Positions 32,085-62,367 of a DNA stretch of 63,265 bases are shown here, piece after piece. The stretch covers positions 1 through 63,265 of IMG/VR virus record IMGVR_UViG_3300009414_000002; one strand, written 5' to 3'. How positions within the stretch are numbered: the stretch's first letter is position 1; each line of letters starts with the position of its first letter. Made by a program: the position numbers and the translations under genes. Origin of the DNA: a virus (Duplodnaviria > Caudoviricetes). Below the pieces are notes generated by a model. The model had not been told where the DNA came from, did not search any database, and saw nothing but the letters and a program-made list of their open reading frames with translations.

Positions 32085-33211
32085 TCCGTAATCCCCGCTG
32101 AAATTGAAGCTATTTTTGAAGACGCCGCTTCATGATCTCGCCACCAGTATTTCCTCATCACATCATCTCTGAAATCAACAACACGTCTCTCTCCCTTCAA
32201 ACACTCAATCATCATGTTGAGGGCTTGTTGCTTTTCTTCATACAAAAACGGGTACCTTTCACTCAACGTGTCATTGAGAATTTGCGGAAGGACCTCTGGA
32301 TAAGATTTGTTGTTTGGTGCGATTGGAAGAGCTCCATTCAGCGCCGCTTCCAAGCATGAGTATCCAAAGTTCTCTTGCTTCGCCAACGAAATCCAGCACG
32401 TCGCCTTGCCAAGAAGGTTCAAATAATCGGGTCGGTCCAAGGGACCCCCATTTGGACCCGCTTGCATGGTCCAGACGAATTCGCCCCTACCGGCGATCTG
32501 AATCGCTCGTTTCGCCCATTTCACTGCGTCGGTCTGGCGTTTTTCGGGGTGATCGCGACCCGTGAACACAATCAACGGTTGCCTGTCGTCTGCTGGCATC
32601 CTCTTGGCAGCAACGTGGTCGTCCGTGTGGAACGGCAATCCGGTGGCATGGACCTTTCGGTCAATGCCTGACTTGTTAACCCTCCAGTGTTCATGGCAAA
32701 GCTCTCGCTTGTGGTGGTTCGTTCCAACGTAGATGTGCCGGAACAGTTGAAGGAACGTGCGTTCGAAGCAACTAACCCACTCGCCATTTGTTTTTCTGGA
32801 CATCGACGCCACGGAATCGCTTGCTGTCCATGACCCGGCATGGAGGATGGCGTCGAAATGGAGTTCGATTCCTTTCATTTGCGCCGCATAAGCAACGCCT
32901 TCGATGCCGGGGAACCATCCGTCCCCCAGCAAAATCACATCCCCGCTTGAAACTTCTCCGGTTTGTATCATCGAGCAAAGCAATGAAATTTGTTTGCTTT
33001 TGTATTTGATTGTTCCGGTTGCGCTCAAAAACTCATGTGATTCAAGGGCTTCTGACATATAGCTCGGGGTGACTGAAGCGACATCCACACCTTTCAGATT
33101 GCCAAGCGATTCTAAAATTCTCTCGTTGAAATGTTTGCAGTACCTCGACGGGATCTCTTCAATGCCGACGTACACTATTTTTTCAGGTGATTTGCGCTTG
33201 GACGTGAACAT
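32081..33211 (-). CDS. GT-B (GT4-like) glycosyltransferase
   Basis: FTGR.HPEK and ENFGYSCLEA (EX7E) motifs. Confidence 0.85.
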   Translation of the reverse strand: MFTSKRKSPEKIVYVGIEEIPSRYCKHFNERILESLGNLKGVDVASVTPSYMSEALESHEFLSATGTIKYKSKQISLLCSMIQTGEVSSGDVILLGDGWFPGIEGVAYAAQMKGIELHFDAILHAGSWTASDSVASMSRKTNGEWVSCFERTFLQLFRHIYVGTNHHKRELCHEHWRVNKSGIDRKVHATGLPFHTDDHVAAKRMPADDRQPLIVFTGRDHPEKRQTDAVKWAKRAIQIAGRGEFVWTMQAGPNGGPLDRPDYLNLLGKATCWISLAKQENFGYSCLEAALNGALPIAPNNKSYPEVLPQILNDTLSERYPFLYEEKQQALNMMIECLKGERRVVDFRDDVMRKYWWRDHEAASSKIASISAGITE

Positions 33212-34169
33212 TGTTCCTCTCTTGAAAGTGACGGACTGTCGCGTCGTTTTCTCCATCTTCCGAAACCGTTACGCGAACCCACGGAATTTCTGGAAATTCA
33301 GAGCAAATTGCAGATGCCAAGGCGTTCCCAATCTCTTCGCACGACGCAGTTTCAAAAATGTTGTTGAGCGTTTTGCACAAAAGATCGTCACAGCATGACT
33401 GGAGTATGTGGAATTCGATTTGACGCGATTTCAAAATCGGAACCGTCGCGGAGCATTTGAACAAATGCCGATGATTTTTCCTCAAATACATGACTTCATC
33501 TGGGGCATCCGGCCAATGATGGAAACCAACGGCTTGGAACCTGACTGTTATCGAAGTGTGTTCGTCGGTTTTTGAATATTCACAACCTTGGCTCAATGGG
33601 CATTCCAAGCAAGCTGGAGTTGTGTTGTGGCAAACCAGTTCGCCAATGTCTTTCAGCGCGATCATCAGGTCGTAGTTGCGATGCCTTGTCATCGTCAATG
33701 ACGCCAAGAATCGCTTTGGATCGCCTTTCAGCCTACTCGCAACCCTGATTATGTGAGCATCCGTTGGTGGTGGAGTGTCGGTTTCACCACGAGCCATTTT
33801 GATCAGAGGTATTGCAGACCCCCAGTCAAATGAAGACTTGGATGCTGGAACGCCTATTTCCCCATCCAGCCACATCGCGACGGAAGTGACGATTGATCTC
33901 TGATACCACGGAAGTGGGAGGTTGCTCAGGCGGTTTTTCTGGGCTTCAGGTGTCAGCTTAAGCCAGTCGCCAAACGTTGAAATTCCGGTGAAAATGCCCT
34001 TGAACTCTGATTCAAGTACCGGTGTGTCCGTGTACTCAAGAAGAGCCAAAGACATGAAAAACACATCCGGTGGACAGTCCGGTGTTCGCCAAGGCAAAGC
34101 TCTTCTTTCGCAATTATGGCTGTAGTAAATGGCAAGTGTGTCTTGTAGGTATTTCAGGTCGCCAGACAA
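33183..34169 (-). CDS. Fusion: MutY/EndoIII-like HhH-GPD [4Fe-4S] domain plus QueD-like T-fold (DpdL-like)
   Basis: RALPWR, DAHIIRV, C-X6-C-X2-C-X5-C; C-terminal GFHHWPDAP, LRKNHRHLF, SCE, VSEDGEN. Confidence 0.75.
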   Translation of the reverse strand: MSGDLKYLQDTLAIYYSHNCERRALPWRTPDCPPDVFFMSLALLEYTDTPVLESEFKGIFTGISTFGDWLKLTPEAQKNRLSNLPLPWYQRSIVTSVAMWLDGEIGVPASKSSFDWGSAIPLIKMARGETDTPPPTDAHIIRVASRLKGDPKRFLASLTMTRHRNYDLMIALKDIGELVCHNTTPACLECPLSQGCEYSKTDEHTSITVRFQAVGFHHWPDAPDEVMYLRKNHRHLFKCSATVPILKSRQIEFHILQSCCDDLLCKTLNNIFETASCEEIGNALASAICSEFPEIPWVRVTVSEDGENDATVRHFQERNNVHVQAQIT

Positions 34170-34193: not shown

Positions 34194-34736
34194 TCAAAAA
34201 GCGATGTGCAGGAATTCTGACCTGCAAGCCGCATCTTCTTTCATGCACCCCCTGAGTGCCGATGTTGTTGTTTGTGCGCCGGTTCTCTGGACGCCTCGCA
34301 TGGACATACACAAGTGTTCTGCTTGCAACACAACTCCAGCACCGAGTGGTGCCAGTTGGTTGTAAAGGTAGTCCGCGATTTGATTTGTGAGATATTCTTG
34401 CGTTTGCGGCCTTAGTGAAAACTTGTCCACTACTCGAGCTAGCTTGCTCAACCCGCATATCTTTCCACTTGGATCTGGAATGTACGCGACCACCGCAGTG
34501 CCGAAAAATGGAAGCAAATGATGCTCACAGAACGAATAGAACATTATCTCCGAACAAACGATCATTTCATCTGTGCCGTTTGCAGGAAACGTCGTCAAAT
34601 TAAAGTCTGATCTCGCCTCGAACTCCTTCCACATTCGAGCGACTCGATCTGGCGTTTCAAGAGTGCCTTCAACCCCATTGTGTGGGATTTGAGACAACAT
34701 CGCTTCAACGGCTCCTTTTATGATCGATTCGTTCAT
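34194..34736 (-). CDS. folE: GTP cyclohydrolase I
   Basis: ETP.RVA, CEHHLLPFFG, GLSKLAR, QE.LT, HLCM.MRG. Confidence 0.95.
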   Translation of the reverse strand: MNESIIKGAVEAMLSQIPHNGVEGTLETPDRVARMWKEFEARSDFNLTTFPANGTDEMIVCSEIMFYSFCEHHLLPFFGTAVVAYIPDPSGKICGLSKLARVVDKFSLRPQTQEYLTNQIADYLYNQLAPLGAGVVLQAEHLCMSMRGVQRTGAQTTTSALRGCMKEDAACRSEFLHIAF

Positions 34737-35413
34737 GGCAACCCAATGAACTTGTGTGTTTGGACTGAAAGTCTCCAATCGGTGTTGTTTTTCAAAAACT
34801 CAATGCACTGTGCGGTGTTGTCGCTTGAAATGCGTGGATCAACATCCCACTGGGGTTGGATGTACTTGTGTGAAATGTGCTCGGGTCCGCAAAGCGTTTC
34901 AACTTGCGTGTTCAATTCCAATGGGTCGAACTCTGGGCAAACGACTTTCAACTCATCATAACGCTGAGGAACAAACGGCATTGGGGGCTTTGGGCTCAAT
35001 GTCACCCAAGCCACTTCCTTTGGAAGCTCATTCGAACCATTTGTTTCGACGTGGACTCGAATTGCGTGCCTAGTCATTTGTTTCACAAGTTCCGTGTCGA
35101 TTTGAAGCGACGGTTCCCCACCAGTCATTACCGCAGTGGCTTCGCTGTTGTTGGGCCACAGCTTCCTTATCGTGTGAGCCAGTTCCGATGCCGTGTATTT
35201 GCCTCCAAGTGGACCATCTGTACCCACAAAATCCGTGTCACACCACAACGCACAACGGCCCTTCTCTACGTTCCGCTTGCGGTCCTCTTCGCGCCCCGTC
35301 CATACGTTACACCCCGCATACCGGACGAACACCACGGGACAGCCCGAATAAGCACCCTCGCCTTGAATTGAAAAGTACACTTCTTTAATCGCGTACGTTT
35401 TGTTCTCGTCCAT
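34733..35413 (-). CDS. queE: 7-carboxy-7-deazaguanine synthase (radical SAM)
   Basis: SIQGEG, VFVR..GCN, CDTDF, TGGEP, ETNG, SPK, WRLSVQTHK. Confidence 0.93.
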   Translation of the reverse strand: MDENKTYAIKEVYFSIQGEGAYSGCPVVFVRYAGCNVWTGREEDRKRNVEKGRCALWCDTDFVGTDGPLGGKYTASELAHTIRKLWPNNSEATAVMTGGEPSLQIDTELVKQMTRHAIRVHVETNGSNELPKEVAWVTLSPKPPMPFVPQRYDELKVVCPEFDPLELNTQVETLCGPEHISHKYIQPQWDVDPRISSDNTAQCIEFLKNNTDWRLSVQTHKFIGLP

Positions 35414-35446
35414 GTTAGCACTCCAATTTGAATCCGGTCCAGCGTA

Positions 35447-35521
35447 TTACCAGCAATTTCGAATCCAAAGGAAAGTCGACGCTCCGCACAAGAATCCGAC
35501 AATGAATGTGCTGATGTCCAT
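35447..35521 (-). CDS. Possible 24-aa hydrophobic peptide MDISTFIVGFLCGASTFLWIRNCW
   Basis: Fills the queD-queE gap; AAGGA upstream. Confidence 0.3.
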   Translation of the reverse strand: MDISTFIVGFLCGASTFLWIRNCW

Positions 35522-35561
35522 GTTCTAAATAATCCTTTTTTATGCCCAGACCCCGCAAAAG

Positions 35562-36005
35562 TTAAGACACAGGGTAGTCAGCCCAGCAGTTTGGGGTTTC
35601 ATACAGACGGACTGACTTGATCTCAACGCCGGTATTGTCCTTGGAGAACAGATCCGAAGCCGTTGAAAACAGAAGTTTTACCATATTTTCGGCTGTTGGA
35701 TTGCATTCCATGATGAATACTTTCATGCTTCGCTCAAGAAAAGCGTCTGCCAAATCGTCGTCTTCATGCAAGATCATCCCGTGGTCCAAATTGAGGTCTA
35801 TCCACGAGCCAAACAGTTCTTTTATGACGGAGAAGTCTACTACCCTACCAATGCCGTCAAGAGAGCCGTCTTCCGCTACGCAGCAAGTCAACTCAACCAC
35901 ATACCGGTGTCCGTGGTAATGTTCACACTTGCCTCCGTGATTTATCAGCCTATGTCCTGCGTCAAACTCGAGCTTCCTTGTGCAGGTCGGTTCTTGTGAA
36001 CTCAA
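35562..36005 (-). CDS. queD: 6-carboxy-5,6,7,8-tetrahydropterin synthase
   Basis: FDAGHR, CEHYHGHRY, VDF, LDH, PTAEN, ETP. Confidence 0.93.
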   Translation of the reverse strand: MSSQEPTCTRKLEFDAGHRLINHGGKCEHYHGHRYVVELTCCVAEDGSLDGIGRVVDFSVIKELFGSWIDLNLDHGMILHEDDDLADAFLERSMKVFIMECNPTAENMVKLLFSTASDLFSKDNTGVEIKSVRLYETPNCWADYPVS

Positions 36006-39395: not shown

Positions 39396-39601
39396 TGACC
39401 TTCCTCCTTGTTGAAAATGCCCAGCTTCACCCGTTTGTTCGCCACGACCTTGCTTGGAAAAATCAAAAACAAGCTGAGTCGCTGCTGGGCGGGCTACTAT
39501 TTGGAGCCCCTGTAGCGTGAGTACCGATTCATTGCGCCGGCTACAGGGACACACGGTGTGCTCATGTTCAATGTCAGGCGCAATCTCCAACCCATTCCAT
39601 T

Positions 39602-49566: not shown

Positions 49567-49575
49567 TGAACCACC

Positions 49576-50775: not shown

Positions 50776-50810
50776 GGACTCCTCCTTGTTGCACTTCAAA
50801 TTCCGATGGG

Positions 50811-51116
50811 TCAATCAACTCGCCAGCCCTCATCGAAAAGTTTGTCTGCAGTAACCGGTCTCGACAACGCTGAAACCGCTTCATGCGAGTCCAGCGTTCC
50901 GTAAATGTTTGCTCCTTCCAAAATGCCTAGCTTGAAGCCGCCACCTTGCGTTTTCATGAAATTGGAAACCAAAACAGCGGTGACTGGGAGTTCCAGACCA
51001 CCTTCCGAAACTTTCTTGAGTGGGCAACACGCGATCCCGTTGAATTTGAACTTCCAACGCAATGGATTTTTCATCCACCCAACGTGCCTGTCTTTGTTCG
51101 AAGACAAAATGAACAT
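50811..51116 (-). CDS. Hypothetical protein
   Basis: GGAGG RBS before ATG 51116. Confidence 0.5.
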   Translation of the reverse strand: MFILSSNKDRHVGWMKNPLRWKFKFNGIACCPLKKVSEGGLELPVTAVLVSNFMKTQGGGFKLGILEGANIYGTLDSHEAVSALSRPVTADKLFDEGWRVD

Positions 51117-52234: not shown

Positions 52235-53353
52235 GAAACACCTCCTTGTTTTCACTGCCCTTGTTCTTTGTCGCCATGCCGGGATTGCCGACACCCCGAT
52301 ATGTTCGCACGGGTGGATAGATAATGCAACCATAAAACAACGTTTATGTGAAAAAAAACAAAATCGTCGTGACGCAAAGCAATTGCATGAGGGTCGCGTT
52401 TTTGTCCATTGGTGCGACCGGGTGGGCGCGTTGCACCCGACGCCGTTGCTTGGACAGTGCTTTAAAGACCGGTTTTTCCTCATGGAATCGCGGTTGTAGA
52501 CTGGGTGGGGTAGGGTTTTGAAAACGCCGGGTTTCTGGTAAAAAGACTCCAGAGGGTCTCCAGCAAGGAATTAGCTGTTTTGTGCCGTTCATTCCCAACC
52601 AAATTCCTACTATTCCTTCTCCATGAGATGGGTTTGTACGACGTTCGATGTGCTTCGGTCGCAGATAATGGATGTTGCTGTGTGCGGCACTCAGGTCATT
52701 TTGGCAATCATGTTAGCGGGGATGAGGAAACTTTTTGGATCTGAAAGCATGAATTCTTTATTCAGCAATGGTTGTTAAAGACTCACACGTAGTGGTCTGA
52801 TCCGTTTAAGCCTCAACGAAGCTTTAACTACGGAGCTACGCTTTGAGGTCTTTTCCAAAGTTTCGAATTCAAGTCCAGTTTCGCGAGTCAGCCTACTCAA
52901 TTGCTAAACTTAACGGCTGCTGAAAGAAATGAATGAAATCTGGGCCGCCGTCCTCTTATTTGTGGCTCGACCTCTTTCTTCGCTGAGCGCTGTTTGGTGA
53001 AGCTTGCTCGAGTGTAATTCGAAAAGGCTGGTTGGAGTCCCAATCTTGCAACACCTGCTGTAAATCAATTCTGTACTGTACTGTTCTGTTCCGCCCGCGG
53101 TCGCTATCGGTGGGGTATCTATACCGTATCGAGGATGAATCTTGGCACGCAGGCGAGATTGGCACGGAGGCGAGACAATTTTACAAATCGGAGGTATAAC
53201 TGGACGACATCATTCGCTGCAGTTTGGCGGTTGGTGGGTCAACGGCGTCTGCGGTACCCCATTCCCCGAAAGCCGTGGTCGTCGTTGATTTTTTGGATCT
53301 TGACTTGGCTGAGTCCAACATGGTACGCTACGAAACGTAGCGTACGAAATTGG

Positions 53354-53596
53354 CTATCGACGGGCGTTTCTTTCGCTTGTCCAATTCGAATGCGCTCTAT
53401 CAATCACAAATTGAACGCTGACATTTTCCGAGTCGCACAAATGGAAAAGGTCGGTCACCAAATCGATGATCAAGTCCACCGCGGTTGGGGATTTCTGGGG
53501 CCTCGTTTGCGATTTGCTGTATGCCCTTAATATCTTCGATGCCGTTCGGGACACGGCTTTCACCGCACCAGTCAACTCCATGTTGGGTCGCTCCAT
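53354..53596 (-). CDS. Small hypothetical protein (DL.TDL.HL motif)
   Basis: GGAGG RBS. Confidence 0.55.
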   Translation of the reverse strand: MERPNMELTGAVKAVSRTASKILRAYSKSQTRPQKSPTAVDLIIDLVTDLFHLCDSENVSVQFVIDRAHSNWTSERNARR

Positions 53597-53748
53597 TTTC
53601 CATTCACCTCCGGTTGTGCCCGCGAAGGGCGTTCATTTACATGAGCAGCGTTTCAAATTGACCGTTGCTCGCATTGTTCGTTGTTTTGCGTCGAATGGTA
53701 TTCGGTTGAACGCGAAATCGCGAGCAACGCAAAATGCTTGTGCCGGTT

Positions 53749-54162
53749 TTAGTCATCATCGGTTGTTTGTTGTTGCGCTTCCGTTGCGATGGCTGCGTAC
53801 ACGTTGATGAGGTCTTTCGTTGCGAATGCGAAAGCGAATATCGCGGCCCAGAATGATTGCAACAAAATGCCGCAACCAACTGCGAACGCGAGTGGAATTA
53901 ACAACGGTGTCAACAGCGGCCAATTGACGAAATACCGCGGTGCTGTGACGTATTGCGTCTCCGTTGGTTCGTTGGACTCACCGGAAAAACATTCCCGAAG
54001 CAAACTGGTTGCCCGTTCATTGCCATCTGACGCCAACGCCCGAAGCACCATGAATTGGGCTTCTGTCGGGTATTTGCCCTCGGAAATTCTTCGTTCCGCA
54101 TAGGCAACGACACCGGACAACTGCTTCGGCACTCGTTGCGAATGTTTCTTTCTTTTACCCAT
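53749..54162 (-). CDS. Membrane protein (2 TM)
   Basis: Hydrophobic C-terminal helices; AGGTGG RBS. Confidence 0.5.
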   Translation of the reverse strand: MGKRKKHSQRVPKQLSGVVAYAERRISEGKYPTEAQFMVLRALASDGNERATSLLRECFSGESNEPTETQYVTAPRYFVNWPLLTPLLIPLAFAVGCGILLQSFWAAIFAFAFATKDLINVYAAIATEAQQQTTDDD

Positions 54163-54397
54163 TGTAAACCACCTTTGGCGTGCTCCGCATTTGTCGGCAC
54201 GTTGCCCGTCCATTGTAAAAAACGGACAAACGCCGTGCTCGGCAAATGCGTTGCAGCCATTCCGTATCAATCCCCCGTTTTTCGGTCCAAATCGCCGCGT
54301 GGAGTGTTGTCCACGGTGACGAGCTTGGACACCCAGAATTTATCGCAAACGGAACACGAGCACTTGTACACATGGCGCTCGCTAACGTTACGCGGAC

Positions 54398-54634
54398 TCA
54401 AAACAATCGGACGATGAATGCACTGCACAATATGTCTCCCTCATGGATGCCCGATGGCAGCCAATGCAATGGAATGTCGACTTGCCGCTCCCCGTCCAAT
54501 ACAACCGCCCAGTCGCCCTCGATCCGGTCAACGTGGTTGTGCTGATGGGCGGGAACATCACTATGATGCCCCGGTGGGACGTAGTGCGGTATTGTGTTTC
54601 CCAAAAGCGCCGCCAACAAAATAAGCGTGTTCAT
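54398..54634 (-). CDS. Secreted DUF3006-like protein
   Basis: Signal-like N-terminus; VDRIEGDWAVV...IP...LP....EGDIL. Confidence 0.6.
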   Translation of the reverse strand: MNTLILLAALLGNTIPHYVPPGHHSDVPAHQHNHVDRIEGDWAVVLDGERQVDIPLHWLPSGIHEGDILCSAFIVRLF

Positions 54635-54801
54635 GCCGTCACCTCTTGGAACTGACGGTTGAAACGCTCCTTCAATTGCTGAACACTCGGCTCGAGTTCC
54701 GCTTCCGTTTTGGATGCTTCACGGATCTCTCGTGCCTCTTTGGTTTCGATTGGCTTGCCATCGCGCTTGATGACCACGCCTCGTCGTCGGATAACTGTCA
54801 T
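54631..54801 (-). CDS. Small hypothetical protein
   Basis: AGGAGG RBS. Confidence 0.5.
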   Translation of the reverse strand: MTVIRRRGVVIKRDGKPIETKEAREIREASKTEAELEPSVQQLKERFNRQFQEVTA

Positions 54802-54892
54802 TGCAAAAACCTCCTGCCGGTTCCCAAAAACCGGCTCAATTTGTCGAACCCGACCCCCTTGTGGGGGCCGACGCATTGGGCCTAATCGACAA

Positions 54893-55660
54893 TCACCGCG
54901 TAGCGTAATTGCAATCCGCGCATTGCATACGCTCCTCTTGACTTGCCGCGTGGGTATCAGCGGGACTTCCGCATGAACACAACGCAACCGGCTCGATACC
55001 CGCACACTTGTCGCACGCAAGCTCTTCGGGGGGAACGTCACCGCATTCGTCTGGCGTCATTTCCCGCTTGCATTCGGTGCAGCGGTACATTTGACGTTTT
55101 ACTTCCAAAACCCGTTGTCCCAAATCCCCGTCGTCCCGCAACGCGGAAGCACCGTCAAACCCATATTTGCTCGCATGGCCCGCTGTGGCAATTTCCGTGA
55201 CCAAGTTCTGCAAATAATTGAGATTGTCAATTTTCCGTGTTTTCCCGCTCGGACGAACGGGGCCACGAGTCATCGCAAATGCGAAAATCGATTCCGCTTC
55301 ATCGTCGTCGCGGGGCGAAATTGCTTGTTGGATCAAAGAAATTCTTTCCAAATCCGGTTCCGTGCGGGGCTTCACGCCGGTAAGGTGGCTGTACGGTGAC
55401 GTGACGTGCCGAACTGTAATTTTGGCAAACCATCCCATCTTGATTGGCGTGCCGTCACCGTAGGTTTTGTGTGCGATTCGTTTGAAGGTAATGTCATCAG
55501 CCGGCCAAACACATTCGCGGTCAAAGCACTGCTCGAACACGTTGTCGGGTGTGCGCTCGAAACCGTACCAATGATCGCGATTATCGCGATTTCTCCGATG
55601 GTGTGCAAACAGCGCGTACGTTTTTGCGCTGATTGTAAATTCCATTTCAATCGTCTTCAC
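54893..55660 (-). CDS. Hypothetical protein with C-terminal Cys-rich zinc fingers
   Basis: AGGAGGT RBS before GTG; CTEC, CDKC, CSCG, CADC. Confidence 0.6.
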   Translation of the reverse strand: MKTIEMEFTISAKTYALFAHHRRNRDNRDHWYGFERTPDNVFEQCFDRECVWPADDITFKRIAHKTYGDGTPIKMGWFAKITVRHVTSPYSHLTGVKPRTEPDLERISLIQQAISPRDDDEAESIFAFAMTRGPVRPSGKTRKIDNLNYLQNLVTEIATAGHASKYGFDGASALRDDGDLGQRVLEVKRQMYRCTECKREMTPDECGDVPPEELACDKCAGIEPVALCSCGSPADTHAASQEERMQCADCNYATR

Positions 55661-55682
55661 GGGACACCTCCTGTTGTCGTTG

Positions 55683-56471
55683 TTAAAATTCGTCCTTCCG
55701 GTTTGTTTGCCAAAAATCATCTCGAACGCGAAACCCGTGCAAAGATGCTGCGGGCGTGTTGCGCTCTTCCGAATCACGAAACGAATATTGATCTTGCGGA
55801 ATACCCCATGAAGGGCTTCTCAATTCATGGAACATGGCGCGCTCTTCCGGTGTCAGATAACCGCAAAAAGGACTCTTGTACCGGAGCGGCTCTGGCGATT
55901 CCGCGTCCACACGATTCTCCCACCGCGAAAAAATGAATTCTCTCAAATCGGGGTTTGCGGCTTTGTTGGCCCGGTCGATGATTTTTTTCATCGCGGGGTC
56001 GGTGGTTGTCTTTAGCGGGGGTGTGTTCGGGGTGAGCGCTGCTTGCAACGTGTACATCATCCAATCTTGGATGTCCGTTATCGCGTCAGCCCATCCGTTC
56101 GGGGATGGATACACGGCTATATGCCGCGCAAATTCGCCACCCTGTTGCGTCACGTACCATTTGGTGGACTTCAAATACAGCATATCCCGGGGTTTGGGCT
56201 CGTCGAATCCCCACACCACGAATTTGCTGATACCGCCGTCCAAACTGAAGTCCGGACCAAACGACCACACACGGAAGCACAACCGATTGGTGTGAACGAG
56301 CCGCTCGGTGCCGTCCACATCGACCGGCTCGATTGCTTCGACCCACGTTCCCAATTCAGTGTTGTAATGATTGATGTCCCAATGGTCTTCTGAAACAACG
56401 GTCCCCGAAGGGGCGTTGCGTCGGAACCGCGAGCACGGAACCGGTAATCGCGAATAAGCTTGCGTTTTCAT
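55683..56471 (-). CDS. Hypothetical protein, paralogue of 56498..57079
   Basis: GGAG RBS; shared motifs with the upstream gene. Confidence 0.6.
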   Translation of the reverse strand: MKTQAYSRLPVPCSRFRRNAPSGTVVSEDHWDINHYNTELGTWVEAIEPVDVDGTERLVHTNRLCFRVWSFGPDFSLDGGISKFVVWGFDEPKPRDMLYLKSTKWYVTQQGGEFARHIAVYPSPNGWADAITDIQDWMMYTLQAALTPNTPPLKTTTDPAMKKIIDRANKAANPDLREFIFSRWENRVDAESPEPLRYKSPFCGYLTPEERAMFHELRSPSWGIPQDQYSFRDSEERNTPAASLHGFRVRDDFWQTNRKDEF

Positions 56472-56497
56472 TGCTGACTCCATTTTGTCGAATCGTT

Positions 56498-57079
56498 TCA
56501 CTTGGACCATTGTGTGTTTTTGAAAATTTCCGACATCGCACGCTCTATCGGTGCGTCGTCGCGGCCCTCTTCGCACAATTCCATCCCCCATCGCTCTTGG
56601 TAAAATCCAGCGTCCGCGAGCAGCTCTTCGGTCATGTTGCGTTCGACGTACTGTTTGAATGTCAGCGGCCCGTTGGCCGACCCGTAGATAGCCGCGTGCA
56701 ATGCCCCGTATATCCAATGCTGGATTTCCAACATCGCATCGTCCAAGTCCGAATAACGCGCCACATGGACCGGCTCACAACGACCCGACTCGTCGGGTGG
56801 GAAGTTCGTTTGATCGGTGACGACCCACGCTTCTCCATCGTTCCAAACGGCCATAACGCTGAACCCACCGTCCACGGAAGCACCCGGTGTGTTGGTGTCG
56901 GTAATGACTCGCGTCGAAAACCGAAACACTTCGATGGGCGCGTCATTGGTTTCTGGTCCACGGATTGTCTCTGTGGACCAATAGCCAATTTTTGTGCGCC
57001 ATATCTCTTGCGTCCGGTCGTGGTCTGCGAAATTTTCGGTGTTGGCGAACTTCGTGTGAAATTGCTGGATTTCGTACAT
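56498..57079 (-). CDS. Hypothetical protein, paralogue of 55683..56471
   Basis: AAGGAG RBS; shared motifs. Confidence 0.65.
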   Translation of the reverse strand: MYEIQQFHTKFANTENFADHDRTQEIWRTKIGYWSTETIRGPETNDAPIEVFRFSTRVITDTNTPGASVDGGFSVMAVWNDGEAWVVTDQTNFPPDESGRCEPVHVARYSDLDDAMLEIQHWIYGALHAAIYGSANGPLTFKQYVERNMTEELLADAGFYQERWGMELCEEGRDDAPIERAMSEIFKNTQWSK

Positions 57080-57318
57080 TGTGAAACTCCTTTGGATGCG
57101 GCCCGATTCAAAAACTGGGGAACCAACGTGGTGTGCCCCATGTCAACAATAATACCATATCCACGCAGTACTATCCACATAAATGTGAACGGGTGGTAGA
57201 TATATGGAACGGGCAATCTGTTCGATTATGAAAACCCATTCCCCCCCATGCTGTGGACCCACCGTGACTGGATACCCACTGATACTGGGCACCCTTGGTT
57301 TTTGAAGGGTCCGGGTTT

Positions 57319-57624
57319 TTACAAAACGGCTGCTGCTCGGACCGCGAGCGTGACCCACGACAACAACAACTCGTCACTGTTGATCCGCGCCGCATGAAGC
57401 GTTCGTGCCACGCTCTTCAAAATCGTGGCCTCCTTGGACCAACCACCACGGGCAAGCGCAATTTCGGATGCAAACGCTTGCTTCTCCGCGTTGAGATAAT
57501 CACCGGGACGACGCGCAAGCGCATAACGCAACGACATCGCATAGCCGTCATGGCCGACGTGAAACAACGCTTTGGTACCTGCCATCAAAGCAAGCTGGCA
57601 CAACTGGTCTCTGTTCTCTAACAT
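57319..57624 (-). CDS. Hypothetical protein
   Basis: AAGGAG RBS. Confidence 0.55.
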   Translation of the reverse strand: MLENRDQLCQLALMAGTKALFHVGHDGYAMSLRYALARRPGDYLNAEKQAFASEIALARGGWSKEATILKSVARTLHAARINSDELLLSWVTLAVRAAAVL

Positions 57625-57748
57625 CGCGAACTCCTTCTTGTTTTCTGGGGCAGGCTCGAAATCGAGCCTACTACCTACTTATATATATAAACACTGTCGC
57701 TGGACTGTGCTCACGCGAGATTTCCGTGAAGAAATCCGAAAATCGGAC

Positions 57749-57764
57749 TGGCACGACGCTTGCA
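57749..57764 (+). promoter_or_regulatory. Sigma54 (-24/-12) consensus site
   Basis: TGGCACG-ACGC-TTGCA. Confidence 0.55.
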
Positions 57765-57768
57765 TGTC

Positions 57769-57852
57769 GGACATCCGTTCACCGGTGATCAAATGTTCAC
57801 CACTGAACAACTGTTCACCGGTGATCAAATGTTCAACACTGAACAACCGTTC
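57769..57852. repeat. Tandem array with 18-bp period (36-bp unit x2), palindromic operator-like boxes
   Basis: GTTCACCGGTGATCAAATGTTCA(C/A)CACTGAACAAC repeated. Confidence 0.85.
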
Positions 57853-57986
57853 CGTGCTAATTATTTTCGCATTTGGCACAATTCTTGAACCATGCAATCC
57901 CCATGCCATAACTCGGTTTCGAAAAATGGCGTAAGTGTCCGATCCCGGCGATTGTCATCGAGACAATCGCACGGGGCCGGAACGTG

Positions 57987-58014
57987 AAAAACCCCGGGGT
58001 GTCAACCCCGGGGT
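57987..58014 (-). terminator. Intrinsic terminator
   Basis: ACCCCGGGG-TTGACA-CCCCGGGGT-TTTT on the minus strand. Confidence 0.55.
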
Positions 58015-58022
58015 GTTGTGGT

Positions 58023-58085
58023 TTACACAAATGCGGAAATTGCGATAACCGCACAAATCGAAATTGCGTATATGGTCAATGCCAT
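58023..58085 (-). CDS. Possible 20-aa hydrophobic peptide MALTIYAISICAVIAISAFV
   Basis: Short ORF directly before the terminator, within the AG-free island. Confidence 0.3.
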   Translation of the reverse strand: MALTIYAISICAVIAISAFV

Positions 58086-58210
58086 TGTTTTACCCGTTGT
58101 TCATTGTTGTTGCCGGTGCCGGATCCGGGCAACCCCGGAAACCCACGGTTATTACCCGTGGCGATTATCCCGGGGTGTGAACCCCGGGACAATCCGCACA
58201 ATCCCGACCG

Positions 58211-58726
58211 TTATGATTTCCGGCCCACGTTACGCGTGCATGAAACCATTCGAACCGTTGCGTGCAACGTGCCGGATTTTTTGTCGCCGGTACGTTCAAT
58301 CGCGTACGTGCGATCGGCCGTGTCGGACGCGGTCAAAACCCGTGCCGTGACGGCAAATTCGCGGATAACGGAATCGATCATGGATACGATTTTATCGATG
58401 TCCAAATCCCGCGCATCATATCCGGCGTTGGCCATTGCCGTCGTCGCATAATCCACGTTCACACCGTTTTCGCCGAACGCCAACGTTGTGATAATTTCCC
58501 GTTTGCCCGGTCGCGCCATTCGCGCCGCACGTTCCGCGGCACGTTGGGATTTCAATGCAATCCCGGTTGCGGCCGCCAATGGTGCCAACGCGGCACGTAA
58601 CACGTCCAATTGTTCGCCCGTCATATCACCGATCGTTGCGGGATCCAACGTGGACAAATCCACGGGGGCCGCGGTATCGGTCGTTTCAACAACGGGGGAA
58701 TTTTTGCGGTTTTTCGTTTTTGACAT
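58211..58726 (-). CDS. Hypothetical early protein encoded without AG/CT dinucleotides
   Basis: 171-aa ORF with natural composition; SD-like GGA elements only. Confidence 0.6.
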   Translation of the reverse strand: MSKTKNRKNSPVVETTDTAAPVDLSTLDPATIGDMTGEQLDVLRAALAPLAAATGIALKSQRAAERAARMARPGKREIITTLAFGENGVNVDYATTAMANAGYDARDLDIDKIVSMIDSVIREFAVTARVLTASDTADRTYAIERTGDKKSGTLHATVRMVSCTRNVGRKS

Positions 58727-59210
58727 TGTTCCAAATCCAATCCCGGTTGCCCGGGCGTTATCGTTTCATCCCGTCCCCGGGAATCATCGGGCCGTTTCAA
58801 TCCCGGGAAATTCCCGGGGTTGTGGAACCGGCGACGATTGGAACAACGGATATTGTTTCCAACCCCCGGATAACCGGTGATTGGGTCCATATTGTCAATG
58901 TCCGGCCGGGGGCCGTCCCCCGTCGATACGGGGGCATGTGTTAAACGTACACGATTGAACCATTATTCACAACGTTATTGTACCTCTATGATATCATTGG
59001 CGTTTTTTGGTGCCGTTGTTCGTGTTTGTGTTAACGGTCCGCAACCCCGCGTTATCGTTGGGGTTTTTTTTCGAAACCGCGGCCCGTAACGGGTCCGGGG
59101 ACACCGGCACCGGTCGCACCGTAACCACAAACGGCGCAACCCCGTGTTATCGTTGGGGAAAAAAAACGACATCGGCCGAAAATAAACCGAATACGGTACC
59201 GATACGGTAT

Positions 59211-59226
59211 TGGCACGGCATTTGCA
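59211..59226 (+). promoter_or_regulatory. Sigma54 (-24/-12) consensus site
   Basis: TGGCACG-GCAT-TTGCA. Confidence 0.55.
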
Positions 59227-59885
59227 CGTCGAACGGGGGCCGTTTCGCCCGTATATGGCATGCCAATTGAACAATGCAATCACTATGCCAACGCGTACGT
59301 TTATCTCTTGGTTTGGTTACGCCGGATCCTCTGATTGTACCAGTCGGTACGGTCGGCCGATCGGGTCGGGGTTCGCCGGTTGACGGTGCGAACGGGACTC
59401 GCGATCGGTCGGCCCCGGATGGTAACGCGGGATCGCACCACATCTCCCGCTCGGTTCGGTTGTGACCACCTCCCATCTGGGGCCGCTCGGTCTCCGGTCT
59501 CCGCGCTCTGTCTGGTCCGGTCTGTAATCGAAAATAATTCGGCGCACCATATCGGGGGGCCTGTGGTTTGATCGCGTGCCCCCGGTCTGGGGTGTTCACG
59601 CTCCCGCTCTGACCGTGCCCACGGCTCTGAATGCCGACCTCTGCCCGGGGCAATCCGCGGCCGGTCTGATCCCGCAACGGCCCGCATACACTGTGACCGG
59701 ATCGCATTTTTTGGCACGATTCTTTCCGGGTTACACCACACCGAAATTACTTTCGGAATTCGGTGAAACTTGCACGGAACTTGCATGATGCGCTCCTGGG
59801 TACCCACAAATTGCTAGCACGCTACAGCAGGGTGTAAGGCTACCAGTTCTTGACAGCAACATTACCGCGTTGCAGGATTGGCGTC

Positions 59886-60545
59886 ATGGCAGAAGAAACC
59901 CCACGGCACCGACGCGCATTCGACTTATACACGAAGCTCCGCAGCACCCGTAAGGTTGCGCCGGTAATCGGTGTGCATGAGGTTACCGTTCGTCAGTGGT
60001 CGCGTATGTTCGGTTGGCAAGAGCGTTTACGTGAGCACGACTCCCAGCTATCGAAATCTGCCGAAGCCGCCAAACGGCAAAAGGCCGAGGCCAAGGCACC
60101 CAAGACCGAAAGCACCCCTGCAATCGGCCCTTCCATTGGAGAATCCGCACCAGCACCCCCACCCCCCCAAAAGACTGGTGACGGGAACACCTCTCCAACA
60201 GACTTGCGGGTAGTAGAAGGATTGCTGGCTCGCTCAGTTCGCGATCTGGCTACCCGCAAGTCTCCTTCCATTAAGGCATCGTGTCCCAAGTGTTCAGCAC
60301 GTTTTGATGCAAAAGTCCCGTGGACGGTTGCCGATACGAAGACGAATGTTGGAGATGTGGAACGGTTGATGCGTTTGAAATGGCAATTGGAAGGGGGTGG
60401 ACCGGGTTCTGGGGGTGAAGATGCGGAATACCGGGACGAACGTTCGACAACCGAAGTTGCTCGGTCTCTAGTCAACCACCTCGAACGTCTTGGTGGGTTG
60501 AATCACATGATCGGACTGTACTTGGATGCCCAACCCGATGACTGA
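59886..60545 (+). CDS. Terminase small subunit (N-terminal HTH)
   Basis: AF.LY...RS..KVA...G.....V..WS...GW.ER; precedes terL. Confidence 0.75.
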   Translation: MAEETPRHRRAFDLYTKLRSTRKVAPVIGVHEVTVRQWSRMFGWQERLREHDSQLSKSAEAAKRQKAEAKAPKTESTPAIGPSIGESAPAPPPPQKTGDGNTSPTDLRVVEGLLARSVRDLATRKSPSIKASCPKCSARFDAKVPWTVADTKTNVGDVERLMRLKWQLEGGGPGSGGEDAEYRDERSTTEVARSLVNHLERLGGLNHMIGLYLDAQPDD

Positions 60546-62367
60546 CCCCACCCCACCATTGAGCCATGCCATTTTGGATGGTGATTGGGAACCATCTTGG
60601 GAGTCGTTGGGCCGAGCCGGCGTTTCATTGCGCGGTCGCATGAACCAACTCTCTGCTGAACTGTCGCGCAAATCCGGTCTTTCCGGTGATTTCTTCGTAT
60701 CTCTCCGTGGCATGGAACGCGACCTTGCGCGACTCGAACAAATCGCTTCGACCGAGGATTTTTTCCGTTGGTGCCGACGTTACATACCGCGACAAGTGAA
60801 CCGTCAACCGGCATCCATGCACCAGCGTGTCGTTGCTGACCTTTCGTGTTTTTTGAATCGGGAAGAACCCGATCCCGTACGTTTTCCCGGTGCTGATCGA
60901 TACGGTGCGTACGCTCTCCCCCGTGGTCACGGCAAAAGCACTTTGTTGGGGTTCGCATGGCCTTTGTACCTTTTATGCAACTGGAAGAAGTTCGATCTCT
61001 TCGGCTACGACGACGAAAACGGCGAGCGTCAGATCGACCAACGACCATTCATCGTGATCATCAGTGCCACCGAGTGGCAGGCTGCGGATCGTGTTCGCGC
61101 AATCCGCGTAGAACTTGAACGAAATCAAGAGCTTGCGGAAGACTACGGCGACCTAAGAACATATGGTCGCGGGATCAAATGGTCTGACCATGATCTTATC
61201 ACAGCCGACGGGTCACGAATAGTGTGCGCGGGCATGGATACGGCTTTCCGTGGCCTTGTTGAGGGCGAATCCCGACCCAATGTGGTTTTGCTGGATGACA
61301 TCGACGACAAGAAGACAATCACCACCACGGAATTGAGAAACAAGGCAGCTAGAAAGATTTCTGAGGAAGTGATCGGACTCGGCATCGAGGGCGAGTTCAT
61401 GATGGTCGCATGGGGCACCATCCTCCACTACGATTCCGTCTTGGCCCGACTGCTTGATACGGCTGGTGAATTCCAAGGGTACGTGCGCCGGAAGTACAAG
61501 GCGTTGCCAGACGAAGACACACTCGACCAAAAAGCCGGTGAAGTTGCATTTCCAGCAAAGTGGCCCAAACATCTCCTTCTCAGAAGAAAAAAGAGCATCC
61601 CGCCACTCGCATGGTCCACCGAGTATCAAAATGAACCGATGGACGACAGCACCACCGTGTTCCCAATGCACTGGCTCCGTGCAGCAATGGGACGAGGTGC
61701 GGATAGGGAAACGCCAATCATGCCACTACTTCCCGTCGAAAAAGGCGGTGAGTTCATCGTCGTCGCCCAAGGATGGGACTTGGCATTCGTGGACAACAAG
61801 CGCCATGCAGAAAAGAAACGTACGTCTTTCAATGCTGGAATCACTGGAGCCGTTGACATCCACGGGAACCTTCATTTATGCCATCTGATTCGCAACCGTG
61901 GGCTCAACCCTCTCGAAATGGATGAGATGATCTCAGCAAATGCCGCTTTGCTTGAGCCCGATGTGGTGGTAATTGAAGCCAACCATGCGGGGCACGTTCA
62001 TATTCACACGATCCGAGAAGAAACGGGTATCCCGGTTGTCGGAAGAACAACTGGCGTGGAAGTGAACGATCTCTACAAAGGGGTCCCGGCACTACAAAGA
62101 CCATTTGCCAATGGGCAGGTCATCATGTGGTGCGGAGATGAATACGGACGACGAATGATGGAAGCAATCGTAGAAGAATTGCACCGCTTCCCACAAGGGC
62201 GTAGAGGGGATACCGTCATGGCCTTGTGGCATTTGTGGTCCGTGCTGCGCCCAGCAATGATGAAGGCAGAGCGTTTGAGGAAAGAGGGAGTTGCCCACAA
62301 ATTCCGAGAAACATTCAAACTTGGCGATTTCAAAGTCGATGTGAGGACTGGCGATGATGCTGAATAA
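60526..62367 (+). CDS. Terminase large subunit
   Basis: PRGHGKST Walker A, VVLLDDID Walker B, GT.LH.D, EYQNEP, GWDLA, IEAN, FP.G...D.V.A. Confidence 0.93.
   Translation: MPNPMTDPTPPLSHAILDGDWEPSWESLGRAGVSLRGRMNQLSAELSRKSGLSGDFFVSLRGMERDLARLEQIASTEDFFRWCRRYIPRQVNRQPASMHQRVVADLSCFLNREEPDPVRFPGADRYGAYALPRGHGKSTLLGFAWPLYLLCNWKKFDLFGYDDENGERQIDQRPFIVIISATEWQAADRVRAIRVELERNQELAEDYGDLRTYGRGIKWSDHDLITADGSRIVCAGMDTAFRGLVEGESRPNVVLLDDIDDKKTITTTELRNKAARKISEEVIGLGIEGEFMMVAWGTILHYDSVLARLLDTAGEFQGYVRRKYKALPDEDTLDQKAGEVAFPAKWPKHLLLRRKKSIPPLAWSTEYQNEPMDDSTTVFPMHWLRAAMGRGADRETPIMPLLPVEKGGEFIVVAQGWDLAFVDNKRHAEKKRTSFNAGITGAVDIHGNLHLCHLIRNRGLNPLEMDEMISANAALLEPDVVVIEANHAGHVHIHTIREETGIPVVGRTTGVEVNDLYKGVPALQRPFANGQVIMWCGDEYGRRMMEAIVEELHRFPQGRRGDTVMALWHLWSVLRPAMMKAERLRKEGVAHKFRETFKLGDFKVDVRTGDDAE

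What the first reader, a model, noticed from the sequence alone, without database searches (positions are those of the whole stretch)
57963..59282. A ~1.3-kb island with essentially no AG or CT dinucleotide on either strand, next to the packaging genes
Seen: reading line by line, 57963-58983 (1,021 bp) has no AG and no CT. To 59282 the only exceptions are two CTs at 58984-58987. On the + strand AG stays absent to ~59815 except once at 59342. About 1 in 8 positions (~120 per kb) would be expected, and the rest of the genome uses AG/CT freely; 53.4-57.9 kb looks partly depleted. The island sits between the early-gene arm and terS, where a genome end or first-injected region would be expected. 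Inference: 5'-AG-3' is the target of something. Either the phage's own DpdA/glycosyltransferase modifies G in AG and this segment must stay unmodified for host RNA polymerase or terminase, or a host defence recognises AG-containing motifs in first-entering DNA. I know of no described case of total dinucleotide exclusion in a phage leading region.
Basis: partly seen in the sequence, partly recalled or inferred. Interest (0 to 1): 0.93.

Follow-up and report, generated by a model that had tools for sequence, protein, structure and literature searches.

The report
Phage early region lacking AG dinucleotides
A marine phage keeps about 1.4 kb at the head of its early genes, including one real gene, completely free of the dinucleotide AG on both DNA strands, most likely so that this stretch escapes the phage's own guanine modification or an AG-specific attack.

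Summary
On the + strand AG is absent for 1381 bp (57962-59341) and then 474 bp (to 59815). CT is absent for 1072 bp (57913-58983) and then 297 bp. No other dinucleotide has a gap above 267 bp.

The island was assembled independently in four other marine metagenome runs. None of the 10 natural SNVs in the core creates AG or CT.

It holds a real ORFan gene (58211-58726, minus strand) written without AG or CT. That gene lacks the dipeptides that would force an AG, and it lacks a normal ribosome-binding site.

The island heads a 6.6-kb early block in which + strand AG is depleted (o/e 0.34). Other short palindromes are not avoided.

The phage encodes a DpdA-type 7-deazaguanine pathway. In Iggyvirus, whose DpdA motif is known to be GA, I found the same kind of zone for GA/TC, kept by selection. 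Eight other lineages lack one.

Best reading (about 0.4): AG is this phage's modification context and the first-used DNA is kept unmodifiable. No modification data exist, so the mechanism is inferred.

The parts
57913..59282 (.). Core island (Z2). No CT on the + strand except at 58984 and 58986, and no AG from 57963. In other words, AG is absent from both strands.
   Evidence: AG o/e 0.03, CT o/e 0.02.
57963..59815 (+). The full + strand AG-free span, with a single AG at 59342.
59283..59815 (+). Z3, non-coding and strand-asymmetric. + strand AG o/e is 0.04 (1 site) while CT is normal (o/e 0.86, 35 sites). It holds GGTCT/CCGGTCT repeats and lies directly upstream of terS.
   Evidence: ORFs here show no codon periodicity.
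53200..57912 (-). Z1, the block of leftward genes of unknown function (early genes by position). + strand AG is halved in every NAGN context, and CT is mildly depleted.
   Evidence: No family matches except DUF3006.
58211..58726 (-). ORF171, a 171-aa protein-coding gene written with no AG and no CT. It is an ORFan with pI 9.1.
   Evidence: Codon periodicity dLL -36.6/-48.2. The only hit among 1.84e9 representatives is itself. 0 of 18 K/E/Q residues are followed by V/A/D/E/G. No AG-containing SD.
57868..57908 (.). D3 repeat, copy 1. It sits at the left edge of the CT-free zone and carries back-to-back TGGCAC-N5-TTG(A/C) motifs on both strands.
59250..59290 (.). D3 repeat, copy 2 (73% identical to copy 1). 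It sits at the right edge of the CT-free zone.
57747..57766 (+). Sigma-54-like promoter motif TGGCACG-N4-TTGCA (perfect match).
59209..59228 (+). Sigma-54-like promoter motif TGGCACG-N4-TTGCA (perfect match).
59768..59787 (+). Third copy of the same 20-nt element, with TTGCAC in place of TGGCAC. It lies about 30 bp before the AG-free span ends.
57771..57842 (.). Tandem 18-bp repeats (iteron- or operator-like) just left of the island. An AT-rich TATATATATAAA stretch at about 57681 lies nearby.
   Evidence: family D1; sequence.
57991..58014 (.). Pair of 10-bp palindromes ACCCCGGGGT that form a hairpin. A related copy lies at 58169-58188.
59040..59071 (+). A 24-nt element followed by T8, which looks like a terminator on the + strand. 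It is repeated at 59135-59166, there followed by A8.
   Evidence: family D5. The stem and T-run were read and were not called by the scan.
53142..53175 (+). Tandem 17-bp TTGGCACG repeats at the left boundary of the AG-depleted block.
59850..62367 (+). terS-like gene (59850-60545) and TerL (60526-62367), the start of the rightward late arm with normal AG/CT.
31263..32084 (-). DpdA-like DNA transglycosylase, the candidate writer of the modification.
   Evidence: PHROG 887, E 2.7e-17. tblastn at 23-34% identity to annotated phage DpdA / queuine tRNA-ribosyltransferase genes. No Pfam or NCBIfam hit.
34194..36005 (-). 7-deazaguanine precursor genes: FolE 34194-34778, QueE 34733-35413, QueD 35562-36005.
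32081..33256 (-). Weak glycosyltransferase-like protein beside the DpdA-like gene.
   Evidence: Glycos_transf_1, E 5e-4, below the curated cut-off. No PHROG or NCBIfam hit.

Best explanation
The island is a genuine, selectively maintained zone at the head of the phage's early (leftward) arm. From it the dinucleotide step 5'-AG-3' has been purged on both strands. On the + strand alone, the purge extends over the neighbouring 0.5-kb leader, and a partial depletion extends over the next 4.7 kb of early genes.

Most likely, AG is the sequence context in which the phage's own DpdA-type enzyme replaces guanine with a 7-deazaguanine derivative. That would affect about 18-19% of all G. The DNA that is used first (control elements, the first gene ORF171, probably the packaging or entry end) would then be kept unmodifiable.

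Being unmodified would have two effects. This stretch could not be cut by host enzymes that attack modified guanines, such as Dag-type glycosylases or type IV nucleases, before early proteins are made. It would also read the same to sequence-specific proteins whether or not the rest of the genome is modified.

Shown: the exclusion, its strand pattern, its limits at repeated promoter-like elements, the real gene inside it, ongoing constraint in natural variants, the presence of the modification genes, and an equivalent GA-poor zone in Iggyvirus.

Inferred: that AG is the modification context, that the region enters or acts first, and the reason for staying unmodified.
For: 1. The exclusion is specific to AG/CT and absolute. 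Other 4-mer palindromes occur at their expected levels: CCGG 29, ACGT 15, CGCG 12, GGCC 12, GATC 6.

2. It is under constraint now. 0 of 10 core SNVs create AG or CT, although 33% of possible substitutions would (p about 0.017). 0 of 8 SNVs in Z3 create AG, and one creates CT, which Z3 tolerates.

3. It overrides coding. ORF171 is a real gene by periodicity. It has 0 of 18 K/E/Q residues followed by V/A/D/E/G, and only 4 of 100000 shuffles reach zero. The figure is 479 of 1405 in other phage proteins and 36 of 165 in the early-block proteins. It has no AG-containing SD, whereas 28 of 51 other genes have one, by approximate start positions.

4. In the early block AG is the only strongly depleted dinucleotide (0.50 of the level in the other leftward genes). 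All eight NAG and AGN contexts are depleted, at 0.31-0.78. The target is therefore AG itself and not a longer word.

5. The phage carries a DpdA-like gene plus FolE, QueD and QueE.

6. Phage DpdA enzymes have dinucleotide motifs. Iggy's is a strict GA with about 97% of sites modified; CAjan's is GA and GGC (passages read).

7. My own test on Iggy. Its 680-bp non-coding zone beside the early genes has GA o/e 0.12 (5 sites) and TC 0.27 (11 sites), while AG there is 0.91. This is the genome-wide GA/TC minimum. Between Iggy and Knedl, 1 of 26 isolated substitutions in the zone touches GA/TC, against 843 of 2354 elsewhere (Fisher p 2.6e-4). AG/CT shows no such effect.

8. Host glycosylases that cleave 7-deazaguanine-modified phage DNA exist: Dag1 and Dag2 (bioRxiv 10.1101/2025.10.29.685425, abstract and section 5 read).

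9. The one reachable relative (L004, TerL 53% identical) has no DpdA match and no AG/CT-free run above 60 bp.
Against: - There are no modification data for this phage, so the AG context is pure inference.
- Known DpdA motifs put G first (GA, GGC). This DpdA-like protein is only 23-34% identical to characterised ones and misses the Pfam and NCBIfam models.
- No comparable zone was found in 8 of 9 other deazaguanine-phage lineages tested: CAjan, 9g, MiCath, Vid5, R7M, NP1, Vibrio 1.207.B and MMDA13. Knedl is a close relative of Iggy (about 92% identical in the zone), so that evidence is one lineage only.
- 7-deazaguanine genomes such as CAjan and 9g are transcribed normally. A need for unmodified template DNA is therefore not general.
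- Z3 has AG on the minus strand at a normal level, so that part of the region would still be modified on one strand.
- The island is rich in GGCC, which the rest of the genome avoids (o/e 0.58). That is odd for unprotected, first-entering DNA.
- The physical ends and the order of injection are unknown.
- L004 is a distant provirus at 72% GC and 52% complete, so its lack of both DpdA and island weighs little.
Confidence: 0.4

Rival explanations
1. An AG-specific DNA-targeting system outside the phage, belonging to the host or to a competing element, attacks incoming DNA. It could be a strand-specific frequent nickase with an AG methylase, like Nt.CviQII (R^AG) / M.CviQII. The first-entering or first-used segment has purged the site because it is exposed before early counter-measures act. 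The phage's own modification plays no part.
For: Natural enzymes with exactly this specificity exist. Nt.CviQII nicks R^AG on one strand, and its partner is described by the title 'M.CviQII methylates AG sequences' (review PMC3017599, passages and reference list read). A strand-specific nickase would explain the strand asymmetry in Z3 and Z1. Motif loss restricted to the early-injected region decides sensitivity to a Type I system in marine Murciavirus phages (PMC12455610, abstract read). All NAGN contexts are depleted. The SNVs avoid AG/CT.
Against: CviQII comes from a chlorella virus, and I did not find a bacterial counterpart. A host would have to protect its own roughly 10^5-10^6 AG sites. 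The virion DNA is presumably modified everywhere, so it is unclear why only this part would need to lose sites. The order of injection is unknown. R^AG would spare YAG, yet CAG and TAG are depleted as well (0.40 and 0.63).
Confidence: 0.22
2. The selection acts on RNA. A dinucleotide-specific RNA-modifying or RNA-cleaving defence effector, analogous to CmdT (which ADP-ribosylates GA in single-stranded RNA), targets AG. The mRNA of ORF171, a counter-defence protein that must still be translated, has been cleared of the target.
For: CmdT shows that a defence can work on a dinucleotide in mRNA (bioRxiv 10.1101/2024.02.24.581662, abstract and passages read). The minus-strand AG-free span (59282 down to 57913) begins inside a minus-strand promoter-like motif (59290-59276) and ends just before the next one (57908-57894). 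ORF171 gives up even its SD sequence.
Against: More than 60% of the AG-free span is non-coding. Both strands are free in Z2, so an antisense RNA would also need protecting. In Z1 the stronger depletion is on the template strand and not on the mRNA strand. The promoters are only motif matches, and there are no expression data.
Confidence: 0.1
3. The pattern is mutational, not selective. A context-specific process repeatedly converts A in AG (and T in CT) to other bases in this part of the genome. Candidates are an editing or repair activity on DNA that is single-stranded during entry, end resection or the start of replication.
For: The losses are matched by gains of CG and GG/CC. CG and GG stand at 1.37 and 1.38 times the level of the other leftward genes in Z1, and CG and CC/GG are raised in the island. 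SNV density is highest in the island: 10 in about 0.8 kb, against 1 in 55000-57900. The + strand depletion keeps the same polarity across Z1-Z3 whatever the gene direction, as expected for a strand exposed from one DNA end.
Against: I know of no enzyme with this specificity. The edges are sharp and coincide with repeat elements. ORF171 keeps strong codon periodicity and an open frame. The observed SNVs are of mixed types. A purely mutational process should not spare 14 other dinucleotides so evenly.
Confidence: 0.08
4. The exclusion serves replication or packaging mechanics. One possibility is a zone without primase start sites beside the origin, since bacterial DnaG primases start at CTG- or CTA-type template triplets (recalled, not checked here). 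Another is a special DNA structure needed by terminase.
For: Iteron-like 18-bp repeats and an AT-rich stretch lie at 57.68-57.85 kb. The cumulative GC-skew minimum is at about 60.3 kb. The phage has its own Toprim-DnaB primase-helicase. terS lies immediately to the right.
Against: No model predicts that a gene and 1.4 kb must lack every AG and CT. The partial depletion across 4.7 kb of early genes and the strand asymmetry are not explained. Nothing was tested directly.
Confidence: 0.05
5. The segment is an assembly or sequencing artefact, or a chimeric insert.
For: Contigs of all four runs fragment in this region, and their word depth falls about two-fold.
Against: The island was assembled independently in 4 of 4 other runs at 99% identity or better, with its flanks attached in overlapping pieces. 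15 runs hold at least 74% of the sampled words of the 4-kb query. It contains a gene with normal codon periodicity. The depletion grades into the neighbouring genes.
Confidence: 0.01

Closest known systems
GA-poor zone of Pseudomonas phages Iggy and Knedl (Iggyvirus), found here. The DpdA motif GA is known from PMC10484667.
   Same: Both are deazaguanine phages with the same two-arm layout. In each, one dinucleotide and its complement are depleted in the non-coding zone between the early leftward genes and the rightward arm. Natural substitutions avoid re-creating it.
   Different: The Iggy zone is 0.7 kb (weaker over a further 1 kb), non-coding only, and not absolute (GA o/e 0.12, TC 0.27). 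Here the exclusion is total over 1.0-1.4 kb, includes a gene, and spreads into 4.7 kb of early genes. For Iggy the motif is measured; here it is only inferred. The Iggy paper's main text does not mention the zone (term searches). Its supplements could not be opened.
Restriction-motif avoidance in first-injected DNA: Murciavirus against the Type I system Mme2I (PMC12455610, abstract read), and the T5 first-step-transfer region lacking EcoRI sites (recalled, not checked here).
   Same: A target motif is lost only in the leading, early-gene region. That region is highly variable and thought to carry anti-defence genes.
   Different: Those cases involve specific 6-bp or longer recognition sites of a known host enzyme. 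Here a whole dinucleotide is excluded, other short palindromes are kept, and entry order is unknown.
Nt.CviQII / M.CviQII of chlorella virus (R^AG nickase and AG methylase; PMC3017599, passages read).
   Same: This is the only natural system I could document that recognises essentially the dinucleotide AG and acts on one strand.
   Different: It is a system of a eukaryotic algal virus. No such gene was recognised in this phage, whose SAM methyltransferase (62354-63049) gives only generic class-I hits. The host is unknown.
[quoted passage not shown]
   Same: It is a defence effector with dinucleotide specificity. Its authors argue that phages could not escape by losing sites. This island shows that a gene-sized stretch can lose every copy of a dinucleotide.
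   Different: CmdT targets GA in RNA, not AG. Most of the island is non-coding, and both strands are affected.
Whole-genome avoidance of short restriction sites in phages, for example GATC-free staphylococcal phage K (recalled, not checked here).
   Same: Complete absence of a short word, driven by selection.
   Different: That case is a 4-bp palindrome absent genome-wide. This one is a 2-nt step absent locally, with strand asymmetry at its edges.

Membership tests
DpdA-type 7-deazaguanine DNA modification system | A DNA transglycosylase of the TGT/DpdA family | tested here: inconclusive
   31263-32084(-) matches PHROG 887 (queuine tRNA-ribosyltransferase) at E 2.7e-17 over residues 120-272. 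By tblastn it is 23-34% identical to annotated phage DpdA genes. It has no Pfam or NCBIfam hit.
DpdA-type 7-deazaguanine DNA modification system | Precursor pathway genes FolE, QueD, QueE and QueC | tested here: inconclusive
   FolE E 8e-57. QueD E 1e-28 and 5e-35. QueE TIGR04508 E 2.7e-60, 203.8 bits, below the curated 240. No QueC was found among the proteins scanned.
DpdA-type 7-deazaguanine DNA modification system | A modified guanine present in virion DNA, in a defined sequence context | not testable with these tools
   Only assembled contigs of short-read runs were available. No native long reads and no LC-MS.
Leading-region (first-injected) restriction-motif avoidance | The region is the first DNA to enter the cell | not testable with these tools
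   The 123-bp repeat is an assembly overlap inside a gene. All runs were kept as contigs, which cannot show ends.
Leading-region (first-injected) restriction-motif avoidance | Absence of recognition sites of restriction systems in general | tested here: not met
   The 14 4-mer palindromes that contain no AG or CT occur at about their Markov expectation in the island, and CCCGGG occurs 8 times. Only AG/CT is excluded.
Sigma-54-dependent promoters | A -24/-12 element TGGCAC-N5-TTGC | tested here: met
   Two perfect matches at 57749 and 59211 on the + strand. 7 of the 10 matches with up to one mismatch in the genome lie in 57749-59784, although the total count is not above chance (10 against 5.9 expected).
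Sigma-54-dependent promoters | An enhancer-binding AAA+ activator, and actual transcription starts | not tested
   The only AAA+ proteins seen are MoxR-like and AAA_24, neither an activator family. No RNA data.
Nt.CviQII/M.CviQII-like AG-specific nicking-modification system | A target equal to AG in all or purine-preceded contexts | tested here: inconclusive
   All NAG contexts are depleted in Z1: AAG 0.55, CAG 0.40, GAG 0.52, TAG 0.63. This fits AG better than RAG.
Nt.CviQII/M.CviQII-like AG-specific nicking-modification system | The enzyme genes present in phage or host | tested here: inconclusive
   The phage methyltransferase 62354-63049 gives only generic SAM-MTase hits and no informative PDB relative. 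The host is unknown.

The most novel reading that the evidence does not exclude
This phage writes its first-used DNA in a reduced alphabet of 14 dinucleotides, covering control elements and one whole gene (ORF171). That DNA therefore cannot carry the phage's own 7-deazaguanine mark.

ORF171 would be the first protein made, acting as a counter-defence against host enzymes that hunt modified guanine. The template strand of the following early genes is partly cleared for the same reason.

If so, motif-free zones reveal a phage's modification context from sequence alone: AG here, GA in Iggyvirus. They would define a previously undescribed layer of the arms race, namely self-modification avoidance.
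Probability: 0.3. Interest if true: 0.9.

Novelty: new variant of a known kind. Interest (0 to 1): 0.85.

Why it matters
- Local, total exclusion of a dinucleotide, extending through a functional gene and held in place in natural populations, is the sharpest sequence signature I know of for an agent that reads only two bases.
- If the agent is the phage's own DpdA, modification motifs of uncultured phages could be predicted from genome sequence alone. This phage would extend DpdA specificity from GA to AG.
- It would also show that hypermodified phages pay a cost for their marks and deliberately keep some DNA unmarked. That fits the recently found glycosylases which attack modified guanines.
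- If the agent belongs to the host, the island points to an undiscovered AG-specific defence in marine bacteria.
- Either way, ORF171 and the neighbouring early genes become candidates for anti-defence functions.
- The simple run-length test used here can be applied to every phage genome.

Tried and rejected
General restriction-site avoidance: rejected, because other palindromes are not avoided in the island.

CRISPR PAM avoidance (for example type I-E AAG, recalled): considered and set aside. Local PAM loss gives an individual phage little benefit and cannot explain total exclusion. It was not tested.

Artefact: rejected.

Searches for relatives:
- DNA search of 50,697 phage records with 57000-61000: no match.
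- IMG/VR scans with TerL, ORF171, the primase-helicase and the 429-aa protein at 5039-6328 gave only distant loci.
- The TerL alignment A1 found one real relative, L004.
- Two metagenome scans and one genome scan found nothing.

ORF171: no Pfam or PHROG family, no homologue, no Atlas hit. The AlphaFold model had mean pLDDT 45, so I ran no fold search.

Rfam: only two sub-threshold matches, taken as chance (Pistol ribozyme E 0.16, REN-SRE E 0.9). No tRNA genes.

Sigma-70-type promoter and terminator scan: not above shuffles (4 against 2.1, and 7 against 4.6).

Expression: no RNA holder was listed, so nothing can be said about it.

Read laying: some stretches had no cover in single runs (for example 57343-57676 in X12). 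Word depth is lower across 57.4-59.5 kb. With contigs this may reflect strain variation, and I draw no conclusion from it.

Cross-test on other deazaguanine phages: no control-region zone in CAjan, 9g (only its first 50,000 of 56,702 bases were fetched), MiCath, Vid5, R7M, NP1, Vibrio 1.207.B or MMDA13.

Literature:
- Term searches found no description of local dinucleotide exclusion in a phage. One search returned 0 papers.
- The Iggy and CAjan papers were searched by term only.


Full report
**Observation.** The window is a complete 63,265-bp IMG/VR virus record. Its 123-bp terminal repeat lies inside a gene, so it is a circular-assembly overlap and not a physical end.

In 57963-59282 there is no AG and there are two CT (58984, 58986). 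The other 14 dinucleotides occur 45-160 times each. On the + strand the AG-free runs are 1381 bp (from 57962) and 474 bp (to 59815), separated by the single AG at 59342. The CT-free runs are 1072 bp (from 57913) and 297 bp (to 59282). No other dinucleotide has a gap longer than 267 bp anywhere in the genome. At the genome-wide rate, a 1021-bp gap has probability about exp(-99).

**Not an artefact.** The 4-kb region is held by 15 marine metagenome runs. I laid contigs of the four most divergent holders, none flagged as the possible source. All four cover the island, and 47 of 52 laid contigs are at least 99% identical.

Of 24 variant positions in 55000-61500, 10 fall in 58176-58952 and 8 in 59560-59672. 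Only 1 falls in 55000-57900.
- None of the 10 core variants creates AG or CT, although 33% of all possible substitutions there would (p about 0.017).
- None of the 8 variants in 59560-59672 creates AG. One creates CT, which that segment tolerates.

The rule is therefore being enforced in present-day populations, in a region that otherwise varies quickly.

**Anatomy.** Three zones share one polarity.

| Zone | Coordinates | AG o/e (+ strand) | CT o/e (+ strand) |
|---|---|---|---|
| Z3 | 59283-59815 | 0.04 | 0.86 |
| Z2 | 57913-59282 | 0.03 | 0.02 |
| Z1 (gene span) | 53749-57624 | 0.34 | 0.65 |
| Other leftward genes | 30607-52483 | 0.75 | 0.79 |

Z3 is non-coding and lies just upstream of terS. 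The change-point into Z1 is near 53.3 kb, beside a tandem TTGGCACG repeat.

In Z1, AG is the only strongly depleted dinucleotide. All eight NAG and AGN contexts are reduced (0.31-0.78), offset by more CG and GG. The avoided element is therefore AG itself.

A 41-bp repeat sits at each edge of the CT-free zone (57868-57908 and 59250-59290). It carries TGGCAC-N5-TTG motifs on both strands. Two perfect sigma-54-like elements lie at 57749 and 59211, and a third, imperfect copy at 59770 lies just before the AG-free span ends. These are motif matches only, and no transcript data exist. Left of the island lie 18-bp tandem repeats and an AT-rich stretch.

**A real gene inside.** ORF 58211-58726 (minus strand, 171 aa) has codon periodicity as strong as terS. 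It uses no CTN, AGN, AAG, GAG or CAG codon.
- K, E and Q are left with only A-ending codons, so they cannot precede V, A, D, E or G. The protein has 0 of 18 such pairs. Only 4 of 100000 shuffles reach zero, and other phage proteins have 479 of 1405.
- It has no AG-containing Shine-Dalgarno core, whereas 28 of 51 other genes, including early ones, have one by approximate starts.
- It has no relative among 1.84 billion representatives and no family or usable fold.

The nucleotide rule thus overrides both the protein sequence and the ribosome-binding site.

**What it is not.** The island keeps ordinary palindromes at expected levels, so it is not a general restriction-free zone. The early-block proteins have no known function.

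**Link to DNA modification.** The phage encodes FolE, QueD, QueE and a DpdA-like transglycosylase. Beside them lie a weak glycosyltransferase-like protein and a ParB-like protein. No QueC was found.

Phage DpdA enzymes act on dinucleotide contexts. Iggy's is a strict GA with about 97% of sites modified; CAjan's is GA and GGC. I therefore asked whether phages with a known motif carry zones free of their own motif.

- **Iggy:** yes. Its 680-bp non-coding zone beside the early genes has GA o/e 0.12 and TC 0.27, while AG is 0.91. The next 1 kb is at about 0.5. This is the genome-wide GA/TC minimum.
- **Knedl:** its relative (about 92% identical there) has the same zone.
- **Substitutions between the two genomes:** 1 of 26 in the zone touches GA/TC, against 843 of 2354 elsewhere (p 2.6e-4). 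AG/CT shows no such effect.
- **Ends:** Iggy has mapped 1,091-bp terminal repeats. The record holds one copy, and the zone lies at the record's ends. That the zone flanks the physical end is my inference.
- **Other lineages:** the pattern is not general. CAjan, 9g, MiCath, Vid5, R7M, NP1, Vibrio 1.207.B and MMDA13 show nothing comparable.
- **The only relative of this phage that I could reach:** L004 is a 52%-complete provirus at 72% GC. It has neither a DpdA match nor an island, which is weak evidence.

**Mechanism.** My preferred reading (about 0.4) is that AG is the context in which this phage's guanines are replaced, and that the first-used DNA is kept unmodifiable.

A plausible driver is host enzymes that cut at modified guanines. 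Dag1 and Dag2 do this to 7-deazaguanine phages, and Dag1 appears to nick the DNA as well. A nick or abasic site on the template strand blocks RNA polymerase (established knowledge, not tested here). If early transcription runs leftwards from about 59.8 kb, that would explain why the + strand is cleared most thoroughly over Z3, Z2 and Z1.

I could not identify that promoter. The minus-strand exclusion in Z2 also needs a second reason, such as a rightward transcript or the binding of regulatory proteins.

**Rivals.**
- An external AG-specific DNA system, with the R^AG nickase and AG methylase of chlorella virus as precedent: 0.22.
- An RNA-level effector like CmdT, which marks GA in mRNA: 0.10.
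- A context-specific mutational process: 0.08.
- Replication or packaging mechanics: 0.05.
- Artefact: 0.01.
- The remainder is unassigned.

**Novelty.** Motif avoidance in leading regions is known for long restriction sites. I found no report of local, total exclusion of a dinucleotide, or of a phage avoiding its own modification motif (supplements closed). I rate it a new variant of a known kind, with high interest.

Noticed in passing
Whole window; island 57913-59282: CACGTG does not occur anywhere in the 63-kb genome. GGCC is under-represented outside the island (o/e 0.58 in 1-53200), yet there are 12 copies in the 1.37-kb island.
   Followed up: no
L010 about 38901-39500; L015 about 38951-39550; L013 about 23701-24300; L011 about 13051-13650: In CAjan, Vid5, MiCath and 9g the strongest local GA depletion lies on the sense strand of the same kind of gene, a DUF669-like protein beside the RecA/Sak4-like ATPase. 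For example, 7 GA are seen against 34.5 expected in MiCath. It may simply reflect amino-acid composition.
   Followed up: no
Window 47992-50814 (-): A MoxR-like AAA+ ATPase (bpMoxR, E 5e-51) and a VWA-domain protein sit side by side in the middle arm of the phage.
   Followed up: no
Window 33183-34169 (-): A 328-aa protein inside the deazaguanine gene cluster matches only the Fe-S-loop segment of MutY-type glycosylases (E 9e-7 over 43 residues) and an unnamed PHROG. No QueC was found among the proteins scanned, so the final modified base may not be preQ0.
   Followed up: partly
Window 62354-63049 (+): A generic class-I SAM methyltransferase is encoded directly after TerL. Its PDB matches are to designed repeat proteins only.
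   Followed up: partly
Window about 57300-59500: In all four runs laid, contigs break into 200-900-bp pieces here and word depth falls about two-fold, while the flanks sit in contigs of 10 kb or more. This fits high strain-level diversity in the island.
   Followed up: no
Window 59283-59815: Z3 holds 4 of the genome's 10 + strand copies of CCGGTCT, and 5 copies of GGTCT. They could be binding repeats for the small terminase, which is encoded just downstream.
   Followed up: no
L008/L009 (Iggy) 59949-60628 and L018 (Knedl) 58374-59205: The experimentally known DpdA motif GA/TC is strongly depleted and selected against in the non-coding zone next to the early genes of Iggyvirus phages. The main text of the Iggy paper does not mention it (term searches).
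   Followed up: yes
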